Positions 2,850 to 10,859 of a stretch of 64,000 nucleotides of DNA are shown one piece after another; position 1 is the first letter of the stretch; each line of letters begins with the position of its first letter. The notes beneath the pieces were generated by a model that saw only the letters and a program-made list of their open reading frames with translations, had not been told where the DNA came from and did no database searches. Origin of the DNA: a virus. The stretch spans positions 32,001 through 96,000 of IMG/VR virus record IMGVR_UViG_3300025137_000017; one strand, given 5' to 3'. The position numbers were made by a program, and so were the translations under genes.

Positions 2850-3460
2850 TAGCCTTTTACACGCTCCTCAATAAAATTAAAGATATCAGTATCGAACTTA
2901 CCAAAGAACTGTGTAAATAATTTTTGCTTTTCTTCTACAGGCTGCTCGCTTGCCATTACTTGTCTAAAATCTGTTGCACTCATACCACCTTCGTTAACTG
3001 GCATTGTTACAAAATAAACACGATTTTCATCTTCGGTTTGTAAGTTTGCTCTGTCATCTGGTAACTCTTGCAGTACTCCACCACTGTTTAATCTACCTGC
3101 ATCTTTCTCACTAAACGCAAGAACTGTAGCAGTATTTGACTTAGTTCTACCAACAAGTGTAACATCTGGCCTGTATGGCTGTGTGTTTACAAACCTGTCT
3201 GTAGGTATATTAAACATTTGACTGGCTATTTTTGCCTTTTCTTCAAATGTAAATGGATCTGTGCTAAAGTCACCCTTGGAATGCATTGCTTGTTGTTTTG
3301 CTCCAAAAGTAGTAGCGATAAATACATTAGAAGCACCAAATTGTGATCCTAGTTGCTTATATAAAGCATAGTGTCCTTTATGCATAGGCTGAAAACGCCC
3401 TCCATAGAACACAGTTACCTGATCTGTTGTGGCTTCATTTAATAAATCTGTATAACGCAT
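2849..3460 (-). CDS. Cytidyltransferase-like nucleotidyltransferase (HIGH superfamily)
   Basis: GGRFQPMHKGH (HxGH) and C-terminal MSATDFR motifs. Likely start is ATG 3460, after AGGAG at 3468-3472, rather than 3487. Confidence 0.8.
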   Translation of the reverse strand: MRYTDLLNEATTDQVTVFYGGRFQPMHKGHYALYKQLGSQFGASNVFIATTFGAKQQAMHSKGDFSTDPFTFEEKAKIASQMFNIPTDRFVNTQPYRPDVTLVGRTKSNTATVLAFSEKDAGRLNSGGVLQELPDDRANLQTEDENRVYFVTMPVNEGGMSATDFRQVMASEQPVEEKQKLFTQFFGKFDTDIFNFIEERVKG

Positions 3461-3477
3461 TATAAATCTCCTACTGG

Positions 3478-3485
3478 TATTTAGC
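3478..3485 (-). promoter_or_regulatory. T4-late-like promoter GCTAAATA for the leftward nucleotidyltransferase/baseplate operon
   Basis: TAAATA core ~18 nt upstream of ATG 3460; the same motif recurs before most structural genes. Confidence 0.6.
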
Positions 3486-3499
3486 ATGGAAAAAACAGG

Positions 3500-3528
3500 T
3501 TGACATGATACCTAATAGGTGTTAGTAT
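3500..3528 (+). promoter_or_regulatory. Sigma70-like promoter for the gp55-gp47-gp46 operon
   Basis: TTGACA-17 nt-TAGTAT with TGn extension. Confidence 0.7.
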
Positions 3529-3550
3529 TAGTAATAACAAAGGAATAATT

Positions 3551-4420
3551 ATGGCTAGAAACCACTATCTATCAAACAAAGAATTACTAAAAGAGATACA
3601 TCGTTCAAAACTATCCTATAGTTGGGTAAGTGATGAGAAATATGAATGGAACGATCTAATTATTAATAGTCTGGATGAGATTAATCCAGAAACAATTGCT
3701 GAAGCAAAGCAGACAAGAGCTGCTAGGATGCAAAAAGAGGCACACGAGGCACAAGTAAAATTGTGGGAAAAAGGATTATTGGAAAGAAAAACAAAGCCCA
3801 GAGCTATTGACTTTGCAGTTGATCCTGATACTATTCCAGAAACAGATATTGTATTTCGTGTTATGACATTTGAGCATGTTCCAGAAGAGCCTGGAAGAAA
3901 GAGCAATCCTAAACAAGAAGCAGATTACCACACACGTTGTAACTTCCCTCCCTTTAAACATTTTGCACTAAAAGGTAAAAAATGGAGTGAGGTAGCTAGA
4001 AGTCACTGGGAGGGTGGTAAGGATAATGGACACTTTAGTATTACAAGTGGTAATACTACTGAAAGACTTGCTAAGATGTATATCATGCTATGTCATAGAT
4101 ATAGTATGCGAGGTAACTGGCGTGGATATACATATGTAGATGAAATGCGAGGACAAGCCTTGTTACAGTTAGCACAGATAGGTCTACAGTTTAATGAAGC
4201 AAAGAGCCAAAATCCATTTGCATATTATACTGCCGCCATTAATAATAGTTTCACAAGAGTATTGAACCTAGAAAAACGTAGTCAGAATATTAGAGATGAT
4301 ATTCTTGAGGAAGAGGGATTGAATCCAAGTTTTACTAGAACATTCAATGCAGAATGGGAACAGAAGATGGCCAATATTGCAGAAGCCAATCCACAAATAG
4401 AAGAAGAGACAAAGGAATAA
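3551..4420 (+). CDS. Late-transcription sigma factor, T4 gp55-like
   Basis: HYLSNKELL, NWRGYTYVDEM and KSQNPFAYYT motifs; directly precedes gp47/gp46 as in T4-like phages. Confidence 0.8.
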   Translation: MARNHYLSNKELLKEIHRSKLSYSWVSDEKYEWNDLIINSLDEINPETIAEAKQTRAARMQKEAHEAQVKLWEKGLLERKTKPRAIDFAVDPDTIPETDIVFRVMTFEHVPEEPGRKSNPKQEADYHTRCNFPPFKHFALKGKKWSEVARSHWEGGKDNGHFSITSGNTTERLAKMYIMLCHRYSMRGNWRGYTYVDEMRGQALLQLAQIGLQFNEAKSQNPFAYYTAAINNSFTRVLNLEKRSQNIRDDILEEEGLNPSFTRTFNAEWEQKMANIAEANPQIEEETKE

Positions 4421-4423
4421 ATT

Positions 4424-5452
4424 TTGTTATTTGATGAAGTAGTAGTCTTTACCGATATCCATTTCGGTATGAAGAATAATAGTCGCCACCATAACCAAGA
4501 TTGTGAAGACTTTATTATATGGATGATTGATCAAGCAAAGGCTCGTGGTATTACAAAATGTATTTTTATGGGAGACTGGCACCATCAACGTGCAAGTATT
4601 AACGTAAGTACACTCAACTATACTATTAGTAATTTAAGAAGAATCAATGATGCATTTGAAGAAGTGTATATGATTATGGGAAATCACGATCTCTATTATA
4701 GAGAAAAACGTGAGATCAATAGTATACCAATGGCAGAAGAATATACTAATATTACTGTTGTTAATGAACTATTAGTTAAGGATGATATTGCTATTGTTCC
4801 CTGGCTAGTTGATGATGAGCATAAAGCTCTTAGAGATCTAAATGTAAAGTATATGTTTGGACACTTTGAGTTACCTAGTTTCTATATGAATGCAATGGTA
4901 CAAATGCCTGATCATGGACATGGAGTTAAAGCTGAAGATTTAACAAAACCTGAGCTTGTGTTTAGTGGACACTTCCACAAACGCCAAAGAGTAGGCAATA
5001 TTATATATACAGGCAATGCTTTTCCACATAATTACTCAGATGCATGGGACGATGACAGAGGACTTATGTTCTTAAAATGGGGAGGACAGCCAGAGTATGT
5101 TGTTTGGCCTGATGCTCCTAAATATAGAACAATATCTTTAAGTAAACTTATTGACAAACCCGAAGAAGTGTTGTCTAATAAAGTACATTGTCGTATTGCA
5201 CTAGATGTTCCTATTACATATGAAGAAGCAAACTTTATTAAAGAAACATTTGCCGCCCAATACAATCTCCGTGAGATTGCTCTTATGCCTAGCAAGAAAG
5301 AGGAACACACAAATGATTGGAATACTGGGATAGATATCGAAGTTGAGAATGTGGATCAGATAGTCCTAAGTCAGCTGGAAACAATACAAAGTGATACTAT
5401 AAAAAACGAACTACTAATCAACATATATAACGGTTTATCAATAAATGCTTAG
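4424..5452 (+). CDS. Recombination endonuclease subunit, gp47 / Mre11-SbcD-like
   Basis: Metallophosphoesterase motifs DIHFG, GDWHH, GNHD, GHF, SGHFH. Confidence 0.92.
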   Translation: MLFDEVVVFTDIHFGMKNNSRHHNQDCEDFIIWMIDQAKARGITKCIFMGDWHHQRASINVSTLNYTISNLRRINDAFEEVYMIMGNHDLYYREKREINSIPMAEEYTNITVVNELLVKDDIAIVPWLVDDEHKALRDLNVKYMFGHFELPSFYMNAMVQMPDHGHGVKAEDLTKPELVFSGHFHKRQRVGNIIYTGNAFPHNYSDAWDDDRGLMFLKWGGQPEYVVWPDAPKYRTISLSKLIDKPEEVLSNKVHCRIALDVPITYEEANFIKETFAAQYNLREIALMPSKKEEHTNDWNTGIDIEVENVDQIVLSQLETIQSDTIKNELLINIYNGLSINA

Positions 5453-7214
5453 AATCAAGAATATTACAGTAAAAAACTTCATGAGTGTGGGTAATGTCAC
5501 CCAAGCGATACAATTTGATGATCAAGGACTAACACTAGTCCTAGGTAATAACGTAGACTTAGGTGGAGACGGTTCTCGTAACGGAACAGGCAAAACTACA
5601 ATAGTTAATGCCTTAAGTTATGCACTATATGGAAATGCTCTGTATAATATTAAGAAGGATAATCTAGTTAACAAGACCAATAACAAACAAATGTTAGTAA
5701 CTGTTGACTTTGAAATGAATGGACAGAGTTATCGTATTGAACGAGGTAGAAAACCAAACTTATTCAAGTATATAGTCAATGATGTGGACAATGCATCAAC
5801 AGATGAGATGCAGGGAGAAGGTCGTGAGAGTCAAGCAGTAATTGAACGTACATTAGGTATGAGTCATACAATGTTTAAACATGTTGTGGCACTTAATACA
5901 TATACAGAACCTTTCTTAAGTATGAGAGCTAATGATCAACGTGAACTTATTGAACAATTACTTGGTATTACTAAACTTAGTGAGAAAGCTGACTTACTAA
6001 AAGATCTTGTGAAGCAGAACAAAGATAGTATTCAAGAAGAAACATATAAAATTAGAGGTACTGAAGAAGCTAATGAACGTATTGGTAGCAGTATTAAAGA
6101 TCTAGAACGCAGGCAGTCAATATGGTTTACTAGACGAGATAAAGATGTTACAGATCTCCAACAGGAACTATCAGATCTTGAGAAAGTTAATATTGATGCT
6201 GAATTACAGGCACATATTAACTTTACAGAGTTTAATACTCGTAGAACACAGATAGATACAGTAAATGGCGAGATTGCACGTTTACAAACTACTATTGAAC
6301 GTGAGCAGAAGCGTATGGATAAGGCACAAAAGGACCTGGATCATACTCTAGATCATAAATGTTATGCATGTGGTCAGGATCTACATGATGAAGCACATGA
6401 AAAGATTGTAGCAACTAAGACAGAAGCGGTTGCAGATTCAGTAAGACACATTACTTCTGACAGCGAAAAGATAAATGATTATAAGAGTGCCTTAACGGAT
6501 ATTGGTGAACTAGGCAAAGCACCTGTACTGCATTATAACACAGTACAAGAAGCATATGAACACCAAAACAAGATGAGTGCCGCAGGTACAGAGATTAAAC
6601 GTAAGCAAGAAGAACTAGATCCATATGAGGAGCAAATTGATACACTTCGCAATACTGGTTTACAAGAAATAGACTGGAGCGAAGTCAATAGACTCACAGA
6701 GCTTAAAGATCACCAGGACTTCCTATTAAAGTTGCTTACAAACAAAGACAGTTTTATCCGTAAAAGGATTATTGAACAAAACCTACAGTTTATGAATAGT
6801 AGGTTAGAGTATTATATTACTCGTTTGGGATTACCACATGAAGTGCAGTTCCAATCGGATCTAACAGTTAGTATTATACAACTAGGACAGGATTTAGACT
6901 TTGACAATCTATCTCGTGGTGAACGTAACAGACTTATATTAGGTTTAAGTTGGGCGTTCAGAGATGTGTTTGAGAGTATGAATCATCCTATTAACCTAAT
7001 ATGTATTGATGAACTTGTTGATAGTGGTATGGATACTATTGGTGTTGAGAGTGCTCTAGGAGTACTTAAAAAGATGGAGCGTGAACGTAATAAAAATATT
7101 TTGCTTATTTCTCATAGGGACGAACTTGTTGGCCGTGTTAGTAGTGTACTACAAGTCACAAAGGAAAATGGATTTACAACGTTCAGTACAGAAGTGGAAA
7201 TAGTTGACGCATAA
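5445..7214 (+). CDS. Recombination ATPase subunit, gp46 / Rad50-SbcC-like
   Basis: Walker A NGTGKTT, zinc hook CYAC within a coiled coil, signature LSRGE, Walker B ICIDE, ISH. Confidence 0.93.
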   Translation: MLRIKNITVKNFMSVGNVTQAIQFDDQGLTLVLGNNVDLGGDGSRNGTGKTTIVNALSYALYGNALYNIKKDNLVNKTNNKQMLVTVDFEMNGQSYRIERGRKPNLFKYIVNDVDNASTDEMQGEGRESQAVIERTLGMSHTMFKHVVALNTYTEPFLSMRANDQRELIEQLLGITKLSEKADLLKDLVKQNKDSIQEETYKIRGTEEANERIGSSIKDLERRQSIWFTRRDKDVTDLQQELSDLEKVNIDAELQAHINFTEFNTRRTQIDTVNGEIARLQTTIEREQKRMDKAQKDLDHTLDHKCYACGQDLHDEAHEKIVATKTEAVADSVRHITSDSEKINDYKSALTDIGELGKAPVLHYNTVQEAYEHQNKMSAAGTEIKRKQEELDPYEEQIDTLRNTGLQEIDWSEVNRLTELKDHQDFLLKLLTNKDSFIRKRIIEQNLQFMNSRLEYYITRLGLPHEVQFQSDLTVSIIQLGQDLDFDNLSRGERNRLILGLSWAFRDVFESMNHPINLICIDELVDSGMDTIGVESALGVLKKMERERNKNILLISHRDELVGRVSSVLQVTKENGFTTFSTEVEIVDA

Positions 7215-7393
7215 TGATTGATGATGATGACGATGCTGAAGGTTTCATTAGTTTGGATGACTTCAGCAACAAAGGATACAAGCAAGACGAAGAAGTTTTC
7301 ACCACAACACCTGATTATGGAATACTAGAAGTTAAGAAAGAACTAGGTGTGGATATCATACAAGAGATAAAGAAGACGTTTGAAGATGAATGA
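7214..7393 (+). CDS. Small acidic hypothetical protein (59 aa)
   Basis: ATG overlaps the gp46 stop (TAATG); reads MIDDDDDAEGFISLDDF...KKTFEDE*; fills the gap; below the ORF-track cutoff. Confidence 0.6.
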   Translation: MIDDDDDAEGFISLDDFSNKGYKQDEEVFTTTPDYGILEVKKELGVDIIQEIKKTFEDE

Positions 7394-7880
7394 ATATGTT
7401 ATTCCTTTAACTGATTTCTTGTGGAATAGACAGGACGTATTTGATATACAGGATAACCATCCTGACTATAAAGCTAATCCTCTCTGGACTAAACTAGGAA
7501 TTGATACACCAACAGATGCATTGATGTGGGATCTAATGATATATCATTCGGACTTACGAAAATTAGAAGCACGGTTTAACTGTGTAACTGATAGTAAGTT
7601 CACTAAAATACTAGCTGGTGGACACATGCCAGCACATATTGATCCACGTAGGACTGCGGTAGTTATGTTTCCATTAACAGAATATCCTAGTCCTATAACA
7701 TATTATGAAAATGAGAAAGAAATCTTTACACATCAATATGAATGTGTTACTGTTATAAATGCAAAGATACAACATGCTGTACCAAACAACCACAGGGACA
7801 GAATTTTCTTCCAAGTTAAATTAGATTTGCCTTGGGAAGATGTTGTATCGATGCATAGTGAAGGAACATTATATGACTAA
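7386..7880 (+). CDS. Putative 2OG-Fe(II) oxygenase / cupin-fold protein
   Basis: GGHMPAHID (HxD), distal QHAV and DRIFFQ (candidate 2OG-binding Arg). ATG 7386 overlaps the previous gene. Confidence 0.6.
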   Translation: MNEYVIPLTDFLWNRQDVFDIQDNHPDYKANPLWTKLGIDTPTDALMWDLMIYHSDLRKLEARFNCVTDSKFTKILAGGHMPAHIDPRRTAVVMFPLTEYPSPITYYENEKEIFTHQYECVTVINAKIQHAVPNNHRDRIFFQVKLDLPWEDVVSMHSEGTLYD

Positions 7881-8460
7881 CTACCCGTTCTTTTACTTTT
7901 ACGATTTGGAATTTGACGCAGATAAAATTTTAGAATTCGTCAACACTATTCCACAAAACCAATGGATAGGCCCACATATTGGAAATTATGATCCTGATGT
8001 TAAGGTTGAACCACATAGAGCAGACAACAAATTATGGACTGCTAATAATAGAGATACAGACTTCACAGCATGTGAAGAAATAAACAAGATTGCGAAATAC
8101 TTCGATACTTACTATACGAGTATGATGATTAAGAAAAGTATAAATGGATTCAATGCTCCGTTTCATCCTCTGATGCAAAATGCAGACTACGATAAAAAAC
8201 ATAACATTGTCCGTACATTTGATATCATTGTTCCTATACAAGGTGGCTTTATGGAAAGCCCGCTCGAAGCTATTGATACAAAGACAGGTGAACATTATTC
8301 ATTAGTACCTAAGGGTTTAGCTTTTATGGTACCAAATGATCCTAGTTGGCATTATAGTTGGTTAGAAACTATATACGATTTTAGATATACTCTTCATCTT
8401 CGTGGTGTAATGCCACAAACATATGAGAAGATAAAGGAACTATATCTTAAAAATGGGTGA
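7873..8460 (+). CDS. Hypothetical protein, possibly a divergent cupin/2OG-oxygenase fold
   Basis: Start after AAGGA. PFHP...DIIVPI...WHYS...RYTLHL spacing parallels the upstream gene, but HxD is not intact. Confidence 0.4.
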   Translation: MTNYPFFYFYDLEFDADKILEFVNTIPQNQWIGPHIGNYDPDVKVEPHRADNKLWTANNRDTDFTACEEINKIAKYFDTYYTSMMIKKSINGFNAPFHPLMQNADYDKKHNIVRTFDIIVPIQGGFMESPLEAIDTKTGEHYSLVPKGLAFMVPNDPSWHYSWLETIYDFRYTLHLRGVMPQTYEKIKELYLKNG

Positions 8461-8917
8461 TTGGAAGTATAAAAGACAGATTGTCGAGAGTCTACCGGAA
8501 GACTGTGTCGGCTTTGTATACATCATCACTAATACTATTACAGGCAAAAAGTACATTGGCAAAAAACTGGCAAAATTCGCAAAAACAAAATATAAAATGC
8601 ACACACAAAAAAATGGCAAAAAAGTTAGAAAAAAGATAAGATCAAAAATAGACTCAGACTGGCAAGAATATTATGGCTCCTCAAAGGCACTAACAGCAGA
8701 TATAGAAAACTTAGGCAAAGACAAATTTAAAAGAGAGATATTGTTCTATTGTGCCTCAAAGGCAGAATGCTCATACGTTGAAGCAAGAGAACAATTCACA
8801 CACAGGGTACTTGAAAGTGATGATTACTATAATGGTCACATACAAGTTCGTGTTCATGGCTCACATATACTAACAGAACAACTCTTAAACAATCCCACAG
8901 ACACAAAGTCAAACTAA
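8453..8917 (+). CDS. Free-standing GIY-YIG family endonuclease
   Basis: GFVYIITN...KKYIGKK, YYGSS, Glu-bearing helix (YVEARE) and YYN motif. Confidence 0.8.
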   Translation: MGDWKYKRQIVESLPEDCVGFVYIITNTITGKKYIGKKLAKFAKTKYKMHTQKNGKKVRKKIRSKIDSDWQEYYGSSKALTADIENLGKDKFKREILFYCASKAECSYVEAREQFTHRVLESDDYYNGHIQVRVHGSHILTEQLLNNPTDTKSN

Positions 8918-8924
8918 TATAGGC

Positions 8925-9245
8925 AAAGAATGCTCCGATTGGTCGTGATAGCTCGACCCACCTTGAACGCATGGGAACGCATGTTTGGATCTGGTGTAGC
9001 AAAGTGTCACTGCGTTGGTTTGACAAACCGAAATGATCAAGCTCTTCTGACAATTGAAACTTGAGGGTAGCACAAAGTCGTTGATATGGCAATGTGTGTT
9101 CCTGCGTTATTAAGCAGTAAGTAAAAAGGTACCGCGTAACCGCCTTTTCCTAGCGTTAATTAGGTTTTACTATATCGATGTGTTGACTTTGACGGGAAAA
9201 GTCGATTTTGCATTTGGCCTTATCAGGCTAAGTGTGAATGACAGA
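8925..9245 (+). ncRNA. Candidate large structured non-coding RNA (family not recognised)
   Basis: Tract without a credible gene, visibly more GC-rich than its flanks, with at least 8 stems, many containing G-U pairs on the + strand (see findings). Confidence 0.55.
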
Positions 9246-9261
9246 TCAAGGAAAAGACGTA

Positions 9262-9269
9262 CATAAATA
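9262..9269 (+). promoter_or_regulatory. Late-promoter-like CATAAATA
   Basis: Matches the recurring nnTAAATA motif; upstream of ORF 9377. Confidence 0.45.
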
Positions 9270-9376
9270 CACTATAATATAAACCATATAGATATTAGTA
9301 ATATTAATCGAAATACCGTTAGGTATTGAAGATTAGATGCCGTATGGCATCACTAATATAACAGCAAAGATATATA

Positions 9377-9817
9377 ATGAACTTCGACATATTCAAAATG
9401 AAATTCCTTGAGTGGACAGAGAATGTAATTGAGCAGAAAAAAGAAGATGGTTTTTCTATCTGTCCGTTTGCCAAAAGGGCACGTCTAGACAATAAAATAC
9501 AGTTTATAGATTGTACAATAGCTACCAGTGAGTTGCTTACATTTAACAAAGAACGATACGAAATAGGTATTGCTTGGTTGGGTGATTCAGTAGACATGTC
9601 TATCATTGATGAAGTTCTAGAGCGTTATAAGGCAGAAAATCCTGACCTATTATACTTTACAAGTACAACAGATTCAGGATACTTTGCTAAGAACTTTACT
9701 AATTGTGTGTTTATTCAATTAAGAGGTGATATAGATATGCGGAGGGAACAGTTACACAAAACCAAGTACTATGACAGTTGGCCAGAGCATTACTATAAAA
9801 TAATAACCGGGCACTAG
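9377..9817 (+). CDS. Hypothetical protein with a DUF1415-like CPFA motif
   Basis: W-x-E-x-V...ICPFAK at the N-terminus and VFIQ near the C-terminus. Confidence 0.5.
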   Translation: MNFDIFKMKFLEWTENVIEQKKEDGFSICPFAKRARLDNKIQFIDCTIATSELLTFNKERYEIGIAWLGDSVDMSIIDEVLERYKAENPDLLYFTSTTDSGYFAKNFTNCVFIQLRGDIDMRREQLHKTKYYDSWPEHYYKIITGH

Positions 9818-9993
9818 CGTTTCGCCTTCATATCTTCTGAACGCTTATTCATTCTCTCGATTAACATCTGAACAGCCGGTAAAGGCATGGTCATAATCTC
9901 TTGATAACCAACAGCACCACCACTATATAATATTATGTCTATGTAGTTTTCTTCAACGGCTTTTCTTTGCTCATCATATCGTTCTACAATCAT
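9814..9993 (-). CDS. Tail-assembly chaperone C-terminal module (gp51 / lambda gpT-like); may be made by -1 frameshift from the upstream gene
   Basis: GAVGYQEIMTMP resembles short chaperone T-modules. The frame is open back through the slippery site at 10032-10038. It also has its own GGAG-ATG at 9993. Confidence 0.55.
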   Translation of the reverse strand: MIVERYDEQRKAVEENYIDIILYSGGAVGYQEIMTMPLPAVQMLIERMNKRSEDMKAKR

Positions 9994-10022
9994 TTGGATC
10001 TCCGACGGCTGACTAGTGGATA

Positions 10023-10859
10023 TCAACCTACGAAAAAATTTGATACATCCAGTTCTACTTCTTGTGACCATTCATTAGAACATTCAATACATTTGGCTTT
10101 GAAATTTGTATCCAAGCCATCATCACTTAATGCTTCAATTCTATCTTTGATTGCATCGTGATCTTTTTTACTAATATTTTGTAACCACTCCCGAATCATA
10201 TCTTTATCTACAATAACTTCTGAACTGTCGGGTGCCTGGACACTTGAGATACAACTTGTGATTACATCAATAGTTAGTGTAGCAAGTTCAACAAAAGTTT
10301 CTCCAAACATTTTAGATTTTGTATTATCATCTGCTTCACTGGCAATTAGATTATCTACCATCTTTTGTCGTTTGATATTTTGAATTTGCATGAGAGTCCT
10401 ATCATCAATTGTATAGGGTCTAACTATTATCTTAAAGTTACTTTCCAGTCTTACTTCTGTATCAAATTCAACTTCTTTAATTTGTGATAGTAGTTGAGCA
10501 CTATCAATGGTCAATTGATTAAGGTGTTTACATTTTGGGCATTCAAGATCTACGTCAAACTTGTTACCATAAGTTGCTTGTCTAATAGCAATTAGTAACA
10601 CAAGCAGATCGTTAACTGGAATCTGTCTGGGATTTTGTATATCCGGACAGCATGATTCAAGTAGTGCAATATTGGCTTCCCCATTAAACAACGCATCAGG
10701 CGTTTTTGTTAACAGTTCGTCTCTGGCACTCATAGGATACACGGCTAGTTCATTATCAACACTTAATTTTGGCTTTGGATCGTACCATTTTGCCCCTGAA
10801 GGCAACGATACAAACACAGCAGGCTTTTTATATGCCTGGATTAGAGGATTTTCTGACAT
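10023..10859 (-). CDS. Baseplate hub assembly / tail-assembly chaperone, T4 gp26-like
   Basis: NPL...LPSG, YPMSARDELL.KTPDALFNG, LLIAIRQATYG, two CxxC pairs and C-terminal NFF. Confidence 0.75.
   Translation of the reverse strand: MSENPLIQAYKKPAVFVSLPSGAKWYDPKPKLSVDNELAVYPMSARDELLTKTPDALFNGEANIALLESCCPDIQNPRQIPVNDLLVLLIAIRQATYGNKFDVDLECPKCKHLNQLTIDSAQLLSQIKEVEFDTEVRLESNFKIIVRPYTIDDRTLMQIQNIKRQKMVDNLIASEADDNTKSKMFGETFVELATLTIDVITSCISSVQAPDSSEVIVDKDMIREWLQNISKKDHDAIKDRIEALSDDGLDTNFKAKCIECSNEWSQEVELDVSNFFVG

What the first reader, a model, noticed from the sequence alone, without database searches (positions are those of the whole stretch)
8453..9245. GIY-YIG nuclease gene followed immediately by a ~320-nt elaborately folded non-coding RNA candidate
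Seen: in an otherwise nearly gapless genome, the 460 nt after the nuclease stop hold no credible gene and begin with a GC-enriched tract full of stems. These are GGTCG/CGACC (8941-8958), TTGGTTT/AAACCGA (9015-9031), TCAAG/CTTGA (9037-9064), a G-U-rich stem at 9070-9098 and CTGC/GCAG (9102-9117). AGTAA/TTACT (9120-9171) closes a junction holding AAGG..GCG-TAAC-CGC-CTT and CCTAG/TTAGG. Further stems are TTGACTTT/AAAGTCGA (9183-9205), the 11-bp GCATTTGGCCT/AGGCTAAGTGT (9210-9235) and a possible long-range TGTCA/TGACA (9005/9239). Mismatches are mostly G-U on the + strand, which suggests selection on an RNA of that strand. Known: some nucleases work with an adjacent structured RNA (IscB-omegaRNA/HEARO, TnpB-reRNA), and GIY-YIG genes often sit in group I introns, but no group I core and no interrupted gene are visible here. 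Inference: either an undescribed nuclease-RNA module (a possible RNP), or an independent large phage ncRNA.
Basis: partly seen in the sequence, partly recalled or inferred. Interest (0 to 1): 0.82.

Follow-up and report, generated by a model that had tools for sequence, protein, structure and literature searches.

The report
Twin-box phage RNA behind nuclease slot
The gene-free stretch behind a small nuclease gene of this uncultured marine T4-like phage encodes a real, knotted non-coding RNA of about 345 bases that belongs to a widespread but only partly catalogued phage RNA family whose job is still unknown.

Summary
Window 8911-9256 (+ strand) is a structured non-coding RNA. On 30 distinct homologues, 97.4% of cells in 66 proposed pairs are paired, 29 pairs show compensatory changes, and 0 of 500 shuffles reach this. 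Rfam has no match in the window or the whole 135.6-kb record. The middle and 3' domains are homologous to RNAs in related phages whose first third is the orphan Rfam motif Polynucleobacter-1, RF01718.

The RNA shows the word GGAAAAG twice (9195-9201, 9250-9256), flanking the last hairpin. Other clades carry other words, usually the same in both places.

A small nuclease gene almost always lies directly upstream. It is GIY-YIG, or in some clades an unrelated PD-(D/E)XK nuclease. The nuclease has been exchanged independently of the RNA, so I read it as a swappable, homing-type neighbour rather than an RNP partner. Function is unknown.

This scan has found the same family repeatedly on other DNA. 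Verdict: a new marine variant of a partly known orphan RNA family.

The parts
8453..8917 (+). Small (154 aa) GIY-YIG nuclease gene. It occupies the exchangeable nuclease slot directly upstream of the RNA.
   Evidence: Pfam SegE_GIY-YIG, E 1.6e-32. AlphaFold model with mean pLDDT 78.4. Best PDB fold match is the I-TevI catalytic domain, Foldseek E 0.033, below the tool's 0.001 line. No PDB match by sequence.
8911..9256 (+). Structured non-coding RNA: the marine variant of the twin-box / extended Polynucleobacter-1 phage RNA family.
   Evidence: nhmmer profile limits. 66 pairs, 97.4% of cells paired, 29 compensatory pairs, 0 of 500 shuffles. No Rfam match. Parts of it stand in contigs of 4 metatranscriptome studies.
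8914..8924 (+). Conserved 5' boundary word CTAATATAGGC. It contains the nuclease stop codon in the window.
   Evidence: Conserved in GIY-linked clades and also in PD-(D/E)XK-linked clades, where it lies about 35 nt after the stop codon. Its role as a promoter -10 element or a 5' end was not tested.
8941..8958 (+). Hairpin H1, GGTCG/CGACC.
   Evidence: 98.7% paired, 1 compensatory pair.
8959..8996 (+). Helix H2, CACC/GGTG, enclosing a variable hairpin.
   Evidence: 98.3% paired, 1 compensatory pair. The inner hairpin differs in sequence between clades.
9015..9031 (+). Clade-specific inserted hairpin, GGTTT/AAACC.
   Evidence: Absent in 8 of 30 sequences. 92.7% paired where present. A weak, sub-threshold Rfam tRNA match (21.6 bits against a cut-off of 29) overlaps it; ARAGORN finds nothing.
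9037..9064 (+). Hairpin H4, TCAAG/CTTGA plus an inner TTC/GAA, with the conserved loop GCTCT..CTGACAA.
   Evidence: 100% paired; 4 of 5 and 2 of 3 pairs are compensatory.
9066..9102 (+). Hairpin H5 (GG/CC, GCAC/GTGT, GTC/GGC). Its loop forms the pseudoknot.
   Evidence: Helices 6-8; 4 compensatory pairs.
9081..9086 (+). Pseudoknot 5' strand, TTGATA, in the loop of H5.
   Evidence: Pairs with 9173-9178. 6 of 6 pairs compensatory, 99.4% paired. The equivalent helix in the distant type also shows 6 of 6.
9173..9178 (+). Pseudoknot 3' strand, TATCGA.
   Evidence: See the 5' strand.
9116..9171 (+). Three-way junction closed by AGTAAG/TTTACT, holding H8 and H9.
   Evidence: Helix 11: 3 of 6 pairs compensatory, 90% paired.
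9125..9147 (+). Hairpin H8 with the family-wide loop GTACCGCGTAACCGCC (GGTAC..AACCGCC).
   Evidence: 4 of 6 pairs compensatory. The loop word is conserved in distant loci (L012, L020, L053, L055, L079).
9149..9164 (+). Hairpin H9, CCT/AGG.
   Evidence: 100% paired, 2 of 3 pairs compensatory.
9195..9201 (+). Box 1, GGAAAAG, in the loop and 3' strand of the local hairpin 9183-9205.
   Evidence: Identical to box 2. 15 of 23 marine variants share a word of 7 nt or more at these two places, against 6 of 404 cross-clade pairs. RNA-library contigs of two studies stop at 9193, just before it (a weak hint).
9208..9237 (+). Terminal 12-bp hairpin, followed by the invariant shoulder AGTGTGAATGA.
   Evidence: 98.3% paired. 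The motif GGCTWAGTGTGAATGA retrieved the homologues.
9250..9256 (+). Box 2, GGAAAAG, in the single-stranded 3' tail.
   Evidence: The spacing between box 1 and box 2 is 55-65 nt in 12 of 12 loci tested.

Best explanation
Window 8911-9256 (+ strand) is the gene of a stand-alone, roughly 345-nt pseudoknotted non-coding RNA. It is resident in a fixed locus of marine T4-like phages, between the gp46-type recombination nuclease block and a 146-aa gene plus the baseplate-hub genes.

Shown:
- It belongs to a large family. More distant members begin with the orphan Rfam motif Polynucleobacter-1 and share the same core. That core is a hairpin whose loop pairs with the strand behind a three-way junction, a GGUAC..AACCGCC hairpin, and two tandem 3' modules. 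Each module is a helix end, a GUG..UGA shoulder, a 6-8 nt spacer and a short word. The word is usually identical in both modules but differs between clades.
- RNA-library contigs join the nuclease ORF to the RNA.
- The nuclease gene is an exchangeable cassette, either GIY-YIG or PD-(D/E)XK.

Inferred:
- The RNA is read through from the upstream nuclease gene and acts in trans.
- It offers the two identical single-stranded words to a reader whose specificity changes fast.
- The cassette is most simply a free-standing homing-type endonuclease gene that parks beside the highly conserved RNA gene and probably cuts in or near it.
For: Reality and strand of the RNA:
- RNAalifold on 18 sequences gives 54 pairs, 20 of them compensatory.
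- On 30 distinct sequences, 66 pairs are 97.4% paired, 29 are compensatory, 0 of 500 shuffles reach this, and slid controls give 33-41% paired.
- Conserved G-U pairs mark the + strand.

Family link:
- L055 carries RF01718 at 3440-3581 (90.6 bits).
- Directly behind it, my window-clade profile matches at 3591-3805 (E 4.6e-16).
- My core covariance model also matches there (49.2 bits).
- In 87 distinct distant-type RNAs the same pseudoknot helix covaries in 6 of 6 pairs.

Twin words:
- 15 of 23 marine variants share a word of 7 nt or more, against 6 of 404 cross-clade pairs.
- 81 of 87 distant-type RNAs do so, with AGATAAT, GGATAAT, GCATAAT and GGATGAT changing in both copies together.
- No complementary partner exists inside the RNA or within 6 kb, so a reader in trans is inferred.

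RNA resident, nuclease exchanged:
- The RNA follows the flanking genes. It is 81% identical over 240 nt where the neighbouring 146-aa protein is about 63% identical.
- The window's GIY-YIG is 54-59% identical to those of sister marine clades, whose gp46 is 72-84% identical.
- It is 70-80% identical to those of distant phages, whose gp46 is 48-57% identical.
- Other sister clades carry a PDDEXK_15 nuclease in the same slot. 25 of 26 such loci have the RNA directly behind it; the 26th is cut off.

Transcription:
- Contigs of RNA libraries from 4 studies cover 8452-9193, 8666-9014, 8933-9193, and 8908-9058 with 9030-9180.
- One of these contigs joins the nuclease ORF to the RNA.
Against: - No function is shown, and no reader of the boxes was found.
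- The slot is filled in 16 of 16 marine RNA-first loci and 93 of 97 distant-type loci. No decayed nuclease copies were noticed, though none were looked for systematically. This is unusual for selfish homing genes, which are normally sporadic, and fits a functional need for a nuclease next to the RNA.
- The 154-aa protein has no DNA-binding domain of the kind known homing endonucleases use (the Pfam match covers residues 4-130). How it would find a target is open.
- Homologues annotated 'NAD synthetase' are common in cyanophages: 500 phage records match, 339 of them Synechococcus phages. That looks more like a housekeeping gene than a parasite.
- The RNA-library contigs cannot prove transcription, since DNA carry-over is possible, and they give no ends.
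- The twin words are not identical in 8 of 23 marine variants, which share only 5-6 nt.
Confidence: 0.55

Rival explanations
1. Nuclease and RNA form one functional module. The RNA guides, inhibits, activates or is processed by whichever small nuclease is encoded upstream. The fast-changing twin words are its programmable specificity element or its processing sites.
For: - Adjacency is near-universal in samples chosen by the RNA alone: 16 of 16 marine loci and 93 of 97 distant-type loci.
- In the sample chosen by the second nuclease, 25 of 26 loci have the RNA.
- One nuclease fold is replaced by another at the same place. That is the pattern of non-orthologous displacement within a functional unit.
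- The nuclease has no visible targeting domain.
- RNA-library contigs of two studies stop at 9193, directly before box 1. This is a weak hint of processing there.
Against: - Two unrelated folds would have to recognise the same RNA scaffold.
- The GIY-YIG gene was exchanged independently of the RNA type, so there is no co-inheritance.
- 4 of 97 genuine RNAs have no such nuclease within 1 kb upstream.
- The GIY-YIG family occurs without an annotated RNA of this kind behind it in Melnitz, S-SSM5 (a tRNA follows there) and phiM19. It also occurs without any gap in L004.
- Seven nucleotides is very short for a guide.
- GIY-YIG and PD-(D/E)XK enzymes are known as protein-guided DNases (recalled knowledge).
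Confidence: 0.12
2. A cis-acting element of the surrounding messages. It would be either a 3' UTR that stabilises, terminates or processes the early nuclease transcript, or a long leader that regulates the downstream gene.
For: - The RNA starts within a few bases of the nuclease stop codon in the window, and within about 35 nt in PD-(D/E)XK loci.
- An RNA-library contig runs from the ORF into it.
- Weinberg et al. 2010 marked Polynucleobacter-1 as a possible cis-regulator ('y' in the table of PMC2864571; passage seen).
- No intrinsic terminator is predicted at 8300-9600.
Against: - 345 nt with a pseudoknot and invariant loops is far more than a stabiliser needs.
- The downstream gene differs between clades: a 146-aa gene here, 300-517-aa genes elsewhere, and a convergent minus-strand gene in L020 and L073.
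- A late-promoter-like word (CATAAATA at 9262-9269; TATAAATA in L083, L002 and L146) separates the RNA from the 146-aa gene.
- No known riboswitch class matches.
Confidence: 0.13
3. A DNA-level element, such as a replication origin, R-loop site or nicking site. The two words would be protein-binding iterons, and the nuclease would act on them.
For: - Two direct repeats 55-65 bp apart.
- AT-rich DNA with further hairpins follows at 9260-9376.
- A nuclease gene lies next door.
- A first-stage note (e1-6146923) raised an origin or nicking site for 9262-9360.
Against: - Conserved G-U pairs would be A-C mismatches on the other strand, so selection acts on a single-stranded + strand molecule.
- The pseudoknot and three-way junction have no DNA-level rationale.
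- The sequence stands in RNA-library contigs.
Confidence: 0.04

Closest known systems
Polynucleobacter-1 RNA motif (Rfam RF01718; Weinberg et al. 2010, Genome Biol 11:R31, PMC2864571; I saw the table passage only)
   Same: In related phage loci the motif lies at the same place, directly behind the homologous GIY-YIG gene (8 loci, 74-115 bits). It is followed by middle and 3' domains homologous to the window's. It is also an orphan of unknown function.
   Different: - The window's own 5' domain does not match the model at all: no hit at E up to 10 in 801 nt, and none in the whole record at E up to 1.
- The Rfam model covers only 141 nt. The pseudoknotted core and the twin-box 3' modules are not catalogued.
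- The paper lists the motif's range as Burkholderiales and fresh water/estuary, whereas the runs that hold this window's RNA are labelled marine or seawater.
Free-standing homing endonuclease genes beside structured RNA genes in T-even phages, such as segB in the T4 tRNA cluster (recalled knowledge; no paper read)
   Same: A small GIY-YIG (Seg-type) gene sits next to a highly conserved RNA gene. The nuclease gene is exchanged between phages independently of its neighbours. Different nuclease families use the same intergenic slot.
   Different: - The slot is almost never empty.
- The protein lacks the C-terminal DNA-binding half of Seg proteins (154 aa; the Pfam domain covers residues 4-130).
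- No cleavage site is known.
IscB/TnpB with omega/reRNA and HEARO RNA
   Same: A nuclease gene is followed directly by a large structured RNA with a short variable segment beside a conserved scaffold.
   Different: - The nuclease folds are different: GIY-YIG or PD-(D/E)XK, not RuvC/HNH.
- There is no transposon context.
- The variable word is 7-9 nt and is present twice.
- The same RNA is coupled to two unrelated nucleases.
- No Rfam HEARO match.
Type III toxin-antitoxin RNAs and phage pseudo-ToxI decoys (PMC5449768 and PMC13682666; search listing and abstracts only)
   Same: A pseudoknotted RNA with tandem repeated units is encoded next to a nuclease gene, and T4-family phages can carry such RNAs.
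   Different: - Only a short word plus its shoulder is repeated here, not whole 34-37-nt units (the unit length is recalled).
- The neighbouring nucleases are DNase-type folds, not ToxN-type endoribonucleases.
- The RNA lies downstream of the nuclease gene, not upstream.
Other large phage-associated orphan RNAs such as GOLLD and ROOL (recalled; both are in Rfam)
   Same: Large, ornate, phage-borne RNAs of unknown function found by comparative genomics.
   Different: No match to any of the 4227 Rfam families. This RNA is smaller, and it has the nuclease-slot linkage and the twin words.

Membership tests
Polynucleobacter-1 RNA (Rfam RF01718) | Covariance-model score at or above the gathering cut-off of 37 bits. 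| tested here: not met
   No RF01718 match in the window at gathering, none at E up to 10 in 8700-9500, and none in the 135.6-kb record at E up to 1. Positive control: 8 related loci score 74-115 bits.
Polynucleobacter-1 RNA (Rfam RF01718) | Same genomic position and homologous continuation as RNAs that carry the motif. | tested here: met
   L055 has RF01718 at 3440-3581. Directly behind it, the window-clade profile matches at 3591-3805 (E 4.6e-16) and core model R1 scores 49.2 bits at 3630-3742. Both RNAs lie directly behind a homologous GIY-YIG gene.
Twin-box phage RNA (informal name from earlier reports of this scan) | A pseudoknot between the loop of the central hairpin and the strand behind the three-way junction. 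| tested here: met
   9081-9086 with 9173-9178: 6 of 6 pairs compensatory, 99.4% paired. The equivalent helix covaries in 6 of 6 pairs in 87 distant-type RNAs.
Twin-box phage RNA (informal name from earlier reports of this scan) | The same short word on both sides of the terminal hairpin, differing between clades. | tested here: met
   GGAAAAG at 9195-9201 and 9250-9256. 15 of 23 marine variants share 7 nt or more, against 6 of 404 cross-clade pairs. 81 of 87 distant-type RNAs do so. The words are not always identical: 8 of 23 marine variants share only 5-6 nt.
Twin-box phage RNA (informal name from earlier reports of this scan) | The hairpin with the GGUAC..AACCGCC loop, and the GUGUGA shoulder after the terminal hairpin. 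| tested here: met
   9125-9147 and 9231-9241. Both are conserved in all 30 marine sequences and in the distant loci printed.
RNA-guided nuclease with adjacent guide RNA (IscB/TnpB-omegaRNA type) | A RuvC- or HNH-type nuclease with a cognate RNA that is co-inherited with it. | tested here: not met
   The nuclease is GIY-YIG or PDDEXK_15. It was exchanged independently of the RNA.
RNA-guided nuclease with adjacent guide RNA (IscB/TnpB-omegaRNA type) | The protein binds the RNA, and the RNA directs cleavage. | not testable with these tools
   This needs biochemistry. I did not run complex prediction, which takes proteins only.
Group I intron with an inserted GIY-YIG ORF | An interrupted host gene and a group I core. 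| tested here: not met
   No Rfam intron match. The nuclease ORF start overlaps the end of the preceding ORF (8453 against 8460), so there is no room for a 5' intron half. The complete RNA exists without the GIY-YIG ORF in PD-(D/E)XK clades.
tRNA / tmRNA | Detection by ARAGORN or by the Rfam tRNA or tmRNA models. | tested here: not met
   ARAGORN finds 0 genes in the window. The Rfam tRNA match scores 21.6 bits against a cut-off of 29, and it lies in a clade-specific insertion. No tmRNA match.
Free-standing homing endonuclease (Seg type) | A GIY-YIG catalytic domain. | tested here: met
   Pfam SegE_GIY-YIG, E 1.6e-32. The best fold match is the I-TevI catalytic domain, which is weak (E 0.033).
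Free-standing homing endonuclease (Seg type) | Sporadic distribution, horizontal spread, and cleavage of nuclease-less alleles. | tested here: inconclusive
   Horizontal exchange is supported by the identity inversion against gp46. The distribution is not sporadic: the slot is filled in 16 of 16 and 93 of 97 loci. Cleavage cannot be tested here.

The most novel reading that the evidence does not exclude
The RNA and the upstream nuclease slot are one functional system of a kind not yet described. A conserved pseudoknotted scaffold presents two copies of a freely reprogrammable 7-9-nt word. That word reads a nucleic-acid partner by base pairing (a seed, a decoy or a target selector). It works together with whichever small DNase (GIY-YIG or PD-(D/E)XK) is encoded beside it.
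Probability: 0.08. Interest if true: 0.9.

Novelty: new variant of a known kind. Interest (0 to 1): 0.6.

Why it matters
T4-like phages are among the most abundant viruses in water, and this RNA is common in them. Only a 141-nt piece of some members is catalogued, without a function.

A 345-nt RNA with a covarying pseudoknot is a well-defined open problem, because it combines three unusual features:
- invariant loops;
- a duplicated word that changes in both copies together;
- a nearly obligatory small nuclease gene next door, whose fold can be swapped.

Either it reveals how homing-type nucleases choose RNA genes as landing sites, or it is a new kind of RNA-nuclease partnership. The marine variant described here shows two further things: the Polynucleobacter-1 domain is dispensable, and the conserved unit is the core plus the twin-box modules.

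Tried and rejected
- Thermodynamic test. The MFE z-scores are -0.36 and -0.35, which do not distinguish the RNA from shuffles. This is uninformative.

- Phage database. Neither 'distant' search found relatives of the RNA. The 459-nt gap gave no match. The 7.9-kb neighbourhood gave only short matches in the first 2.1 kb of the query, none over the RNA.

- tRNA or tmRNA reading. I recalled the abstract of the Melnitz paper, which reports a two-piece tmRNA, and considered this reading. I rejected it: ARAGORN finds nothing, there are no Rfam tmRNA hits, and there is no T-arm or 7-bp acceptor stem by eye. In Melnitz the GIY-YIG homologue lies in another context, with only about 150 nt behind it.

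- Coding reading. Rejected: there is no conserved ORF, and the indels are not multiples of three. An AUG at 9238 is absent in several clades.

- Alternative-pairing switch. The idea was that the strand before box 1 pairs with either box 1 or box 2. RNAfold often draws it. However, duplex energies between the two flanks are no better within an RNA (mean -9.4) than between clades (mean -9.3, 434 pairs). Not supported.

- Intramolecular partner of the boxes. No column is consistently complementary.

- Further copies or complements of the word within 6 kb. None lies at a shared position.

- Core covariance model R1. With default filters it found only 7 of the 88 sources searched, so it is too insensitive for the distant type. 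I therefore aligned the distant type separately. Its finding nothing in Melnitz, S-SSM5 and phiM19 (L147-L149) is for the same reason no evidence of absence.

- Nuclease elsewhere in PD-(D/E)XK-clade records. No GIY-YIG homologue was found in a 95.8-kb and a 54.1-kb record. These fragments are 27% and 15% complete, so this says little.

- Parts of the stretch without cover in the RNA-library contigs (after 9217, the 146-aa gene, and before 8452). I draw no conclusion from them.

- Two of the 99 motif loci (L193, L210) were chance matches in GC-rich coding DNA. I dropped them before the 97-locus count.

- Literature. 'Polynucleobacter-1' found only the 2010 paper. A search requiring 3 of the 4 terms GIY-YIG, T4-like, noncoding RNA and pseudoknot listed 13 papers, none on this RNA by title or abstract. 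I read passages of PMC9602691; it lists other cyanophage RNAs only. Additional file 3 of PMC2864571, which holds gene contexts of the motifs, may bear on the nuclease linkage, and I could not see it.


Full report
**What is there**

The window lies in a 135.6-kb IMG/VR virus record that CheckV estimates to be 37% complete. The genes around the finding are those of a T4-like phage:
- a gp46/SbcC-type recombination nuclease (5445-7214);
- three small genes;
- the 154-aa GIY-YIG gene (8453-8917; Pfam SegE_GIY-YIG, E 1.6e-32);
- a 460-nt gap;
- a 146-aa gene of unknown function (9377-9817; PHROG 10325);
- on the other strand, an 85-aa ORF without a family match (an earlier first-stage note calls it gp51-like) and a baseplate-hub gene (PHROG 150).

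The gap has raised GC: 0.42-0.445 against about 0.31-0.36. It has no conserved ORF. It has no Rfam match at gathering thresholds in the whole window. At E up to 10 it has only a sub-threshold tRNA-like match (21.6 bits against a cut-off of 29). ARAGORN finds nothing. The minimum free energy is no better than that of shuffles (z -0.36 and -0.35).

**Homologues**

Relatives of the downstream 146-aa gene (13 loci) carry the gap sequence. Identity is 96% in the closest loci. It is 81% over 240 nt in loci whose 146-aa protein is only about 63% identical. Weaker similarity remains in a further clade.

An invariant 16-nt motif from the 3' hairpin retrieved 30 viral stretches and 22 metagenome stretches. 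Ten of the 30 viral stretches were chance matches and were dropped after alignment. Sampling by the PD-(D/E)XK gene added further clades.

In all I obtained 30 distinct full-length sequences in roughly a dozen clades.

**Structure**

RNAalifold on the first 18 sequences gave 54 pairs, 20 of them with compensatory changes.

I then scanned all column pairs for stacked covarying pairs and tested the resulting structure on alignment A4. The structure has 14 helices, 66 pairs and one pseudoknot. Results:
- 97.4% of 1939 cells form standard pairs; the shuffled mean is 86.3%.
- 29 pairs have changes on both sides; the shuffled mean is 20.4.
- The covariation score is 0.376 against 0.172.
- 0 of 500 shuffles reach the observed value on these three measures. 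The count of further pair types, 64 against a shuffled mean of 69.2, was reached or exceeded by 499 of the 500 shuffles.
- With the 3' partners slid by 1-3 columns, only 33-41% of cells pair and 3-8 pairs covary.

Because the structure was derived from these same sequences, the slid control is favourable by construction. The shuffle control and the number of double changes are the stronger evidence.

The inner GCG/CGC pairing and the long-range TGTCA/TGACA pairing are not. All six of its pairs are compensatory and 99.4% of cells are paired.

Many positions are conserved G-U pairs, which would be A-C on the opposite strand. The molecule is therefore a + strand RNA.

**Relation to known families**

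A gathering-threshold Rfam scan of 19 related loci found RF01718, Polynucleobacter-1. It scores 74-115 bits and lies directly behind the GIY-YIG gene in 8 of the 12 distant GIY-first loci scanned. It was found in none of the 7 marine-type loci.

In those distant loci the 141-nt motif is followed by sequence that my window-clade profile recognises. For L055 the E-value is 4.6e-16, and about 30 further loci match weakly at a constant distance behind the nuclease gene. My core covariance model R1 scores 49-52 bits on L055 and L066.

An independent sample of the distant type was taken by an exact 17-nt word of the GGUAC..AACCGCC hairpin. It gave 87 distinct sequences with these features:
- a hairpin-loop pseudoknot in which 6 of 6 pairs covary;
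- a junction-closing helix in which 4 of 4 pairs covary;
- a terminal hairpin in which 4 of 8 pairs covary;
- a GUGUGA shoulder after the terminal hairpin.

The window's RNA is thus a member of one large family. In that family Polynucleobacter-1 is an optional 5' domain. The window has a different 5' domain (H1, H2 and an inserted hairpin). A related 5' domain is also seen in L005.

RF01718 itself is not met in the window or anywhere in the record. The 2010 paper lists the motif only as a possible RNA and possible cis-regulator from Burkholderiales and fresh water/estuary (table passage). A full-text search for the name found no other paper.

**Twin words**

Two short regions carry the same word. 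One begins 15-17 nt after the pseudoknot strand. The other begins 10-13 nt after the terminal hairpin.

In the window the word is GGAAAAG (9195-9201 and 9250-9256). Other marine clades have (A)TGTCAAG, TTGTAAA, GGCGAAAAA or GG(G)AAATAG.
- 15 of 23 distinct marine variants share a word of 7 nt or more.
- The other 8 share 5-6 nt.
- Only 6 of 404 cross-clade pairings reach 7 nt.

In the distant type, 81 of 87 RNAs share 7 nt or more. AGATAAT, GGATAAT, GCATAAT and GGATGAT change in both copies together. In that set's cross-control, 217 of 2278 pairs reach 7 nt.

Each word follows a helix end, a GUG..UGA shoulder and a 6-8 nt spacer. The 3' domain therefore consists of two tandem modules.

I found no complementary partner inside the RNA. 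No further copy or complement lies at a shared place within 6 kb. A conformational switch that uses either word is not supported. What reads the words is unknown. I infer a reader in trans.

**The nuclease slot**

In the marine RNA-first sample, 15 of the 18 distinct non-window elements have a GIY-YIG gene directly upstream. One has another gene there, and 2 lack upstream DNA.

The exception is a 158-177-aa protein of Pfam PDDEXK_15 (E 9e-26 and 3e-25). Sampling by that protein gave 26 loci. 25 of them have the RNA starting within some tens of bases behind it, and the 26th is cut off.

In the distant-type RNA-first sample there are 97 genuine loci with 1 kb of upstream DNA. 92 have a GIY-YIG gene, 1 has a PD-(D/E)XK gene and 4 have neither.

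The nuclease is not inherited with the RNA. Compared with sister marine clades, the window's GIY-YIG is 54-59% identical while gp46 is 72-84% identical. Compared with distant phages, it is 70-80% identical while gp46 is 48-57% identical. The RNAs of those distant phages are of the other type.

The protein family is also common without this RNA. 500 phage records match it, mostly cyanophages, where it is annotated 'NAD synthetase'. In S-SSM5 a tRNA gene follows it. In phiM19 the next gene starts 29 nt later. In Melnitz about 150 nt follow.

The predicted fold (mean pLDDT 78.4) is closest to the I-TevI catalytic domain. The score is weak (Foldseek E 0.033). No PDB sequence matches.

**Expression**

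Fourteen RNA libraries from marine or seawater metatranscriptomes hold parts of the stretch. I laid contigs from four studies:
- 8452-9193: one contig that joins the nuclease ORF and the RNA;
- 8666-9014;
- 8933-9193;
- 8908-9058 and 9030-9180.

Contigs from two studies stop at 9193, one base before GGGAAAAG, without loose ends. Contigs cannot prove transcription or give ends.

**Interpretation**

Shown:
- a real + strand structured RNA of a large phage family;
- a conserved pseudoknotted core;
- duplicated covarying words;
- a nearly obligatory but exchangeable nuclease gene upstream.

Inferred:
- The RNA is resident and the nuclease is the mobile part.
- The simplest reading is that homing-type endonuclease genes of two families park beside a very conserved RNA gene, as Seg genes do beside conserved T4 genes (recalled knowledge).
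- The RNA itself acts in trans through its two identical words.

The main rival is a true functional coupling of RNA and nuclease. The near-absence of empty slots and the swap of nuclease folds fit it well. The independent exchange of the nuclease, the two unrelated folds, the 4 RNAs without a nuclease, and the many nuclease genes without the RNA speak against a specific RNP. I give this rival 0.12. I give its boldest form, a programmable RNA-nuclease system, 0.08.

**Earlier reports and score**

This scan has reported the family several times on other DNA, as 'twin-box phage RNA', with Polynucleobacter-1 as the closest known family. I tested those leads here independently. I add three things:
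- a marine variant without the Polynucleobacter-1 domain;
- the PD-(D/E)XK replacement, supported by sampling from both sides;
- the RNA-library contigs.

I score interest at 0.6. The object is real, widespread and strange, and its function is open. But part of the family has been in Rfam since 2010, and no mechanism could be established.

Noticed in passing
window 9262-9269: CATAAATA lies directly behind box 2. The closest relatives (L083, L002, L146) have the exact word TATAAATA there. I recall TATAAATA as the T4 late-promoter consensus. It would give the 146-aa gene its own late promoter and mark the 3' limit of the RNA.
   Followed up: partly
window 9313-9326 and 9336-9351: Two small hairpins (ATACC/GGTAT and GATGCC/GGCATC) lie in the AT-rich spacer before the 146-aa gene. 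The second keeps its pairing through compensatory changes in other clades (GATGTC/GACATC, ATTGCTC/GAGCAAT). It may be a leader or processing hairpin of the late message. A first-stage note (e1-6146923) read the region as a DNA palindrome.
   Followed up: partly
window 7380-8460 compared with L082-L092: The genes between gp46 and the nuclease slot vary between close relatives. The 206-aa gene at 7840-8460 found no tblastn match in the 13 loci sampled by the 146-aa gene, nor in the further loci. The 166-aa gene is only 62-64% identical in loci whose gp46 is 99% identical. The whole stretch behind gp46 looks like a region of gene exchange.
   Followed up: no
L148 (Synechococcus phage S-SSM5) 2881-3594: In this cyanophage the homologous small GIY-YIG gene (annotated 'NAD synthetase', T4-like gene cluster 213) is followed after about 160 nt by a tRNA-Arg gene. 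The place behind this nuclease gene may hold RNA genes of different kinds in different T4-like phages.
   Followed up: no
L088 2330-2465, L053 3490-3560, L048 3455-3510: Some marine-type RNAs (the L088 and L053 clades) extend further 5'. They carry a segment (GGTTGGCACGCCAG .. GAATCCGTTC..GACGG) that resembles part of the Polynucleobacter-1 region of L048, yet they do not reach the Rfam cut-off. The 5' domain of the family is a mosaic.
   Followed up: partly
window 9814-10859 (minus strand): First-stage notes propose a -1 frameshift joining the baseplate-hub-like gene and the next ORF. I did not examine it.
   Followed up: no
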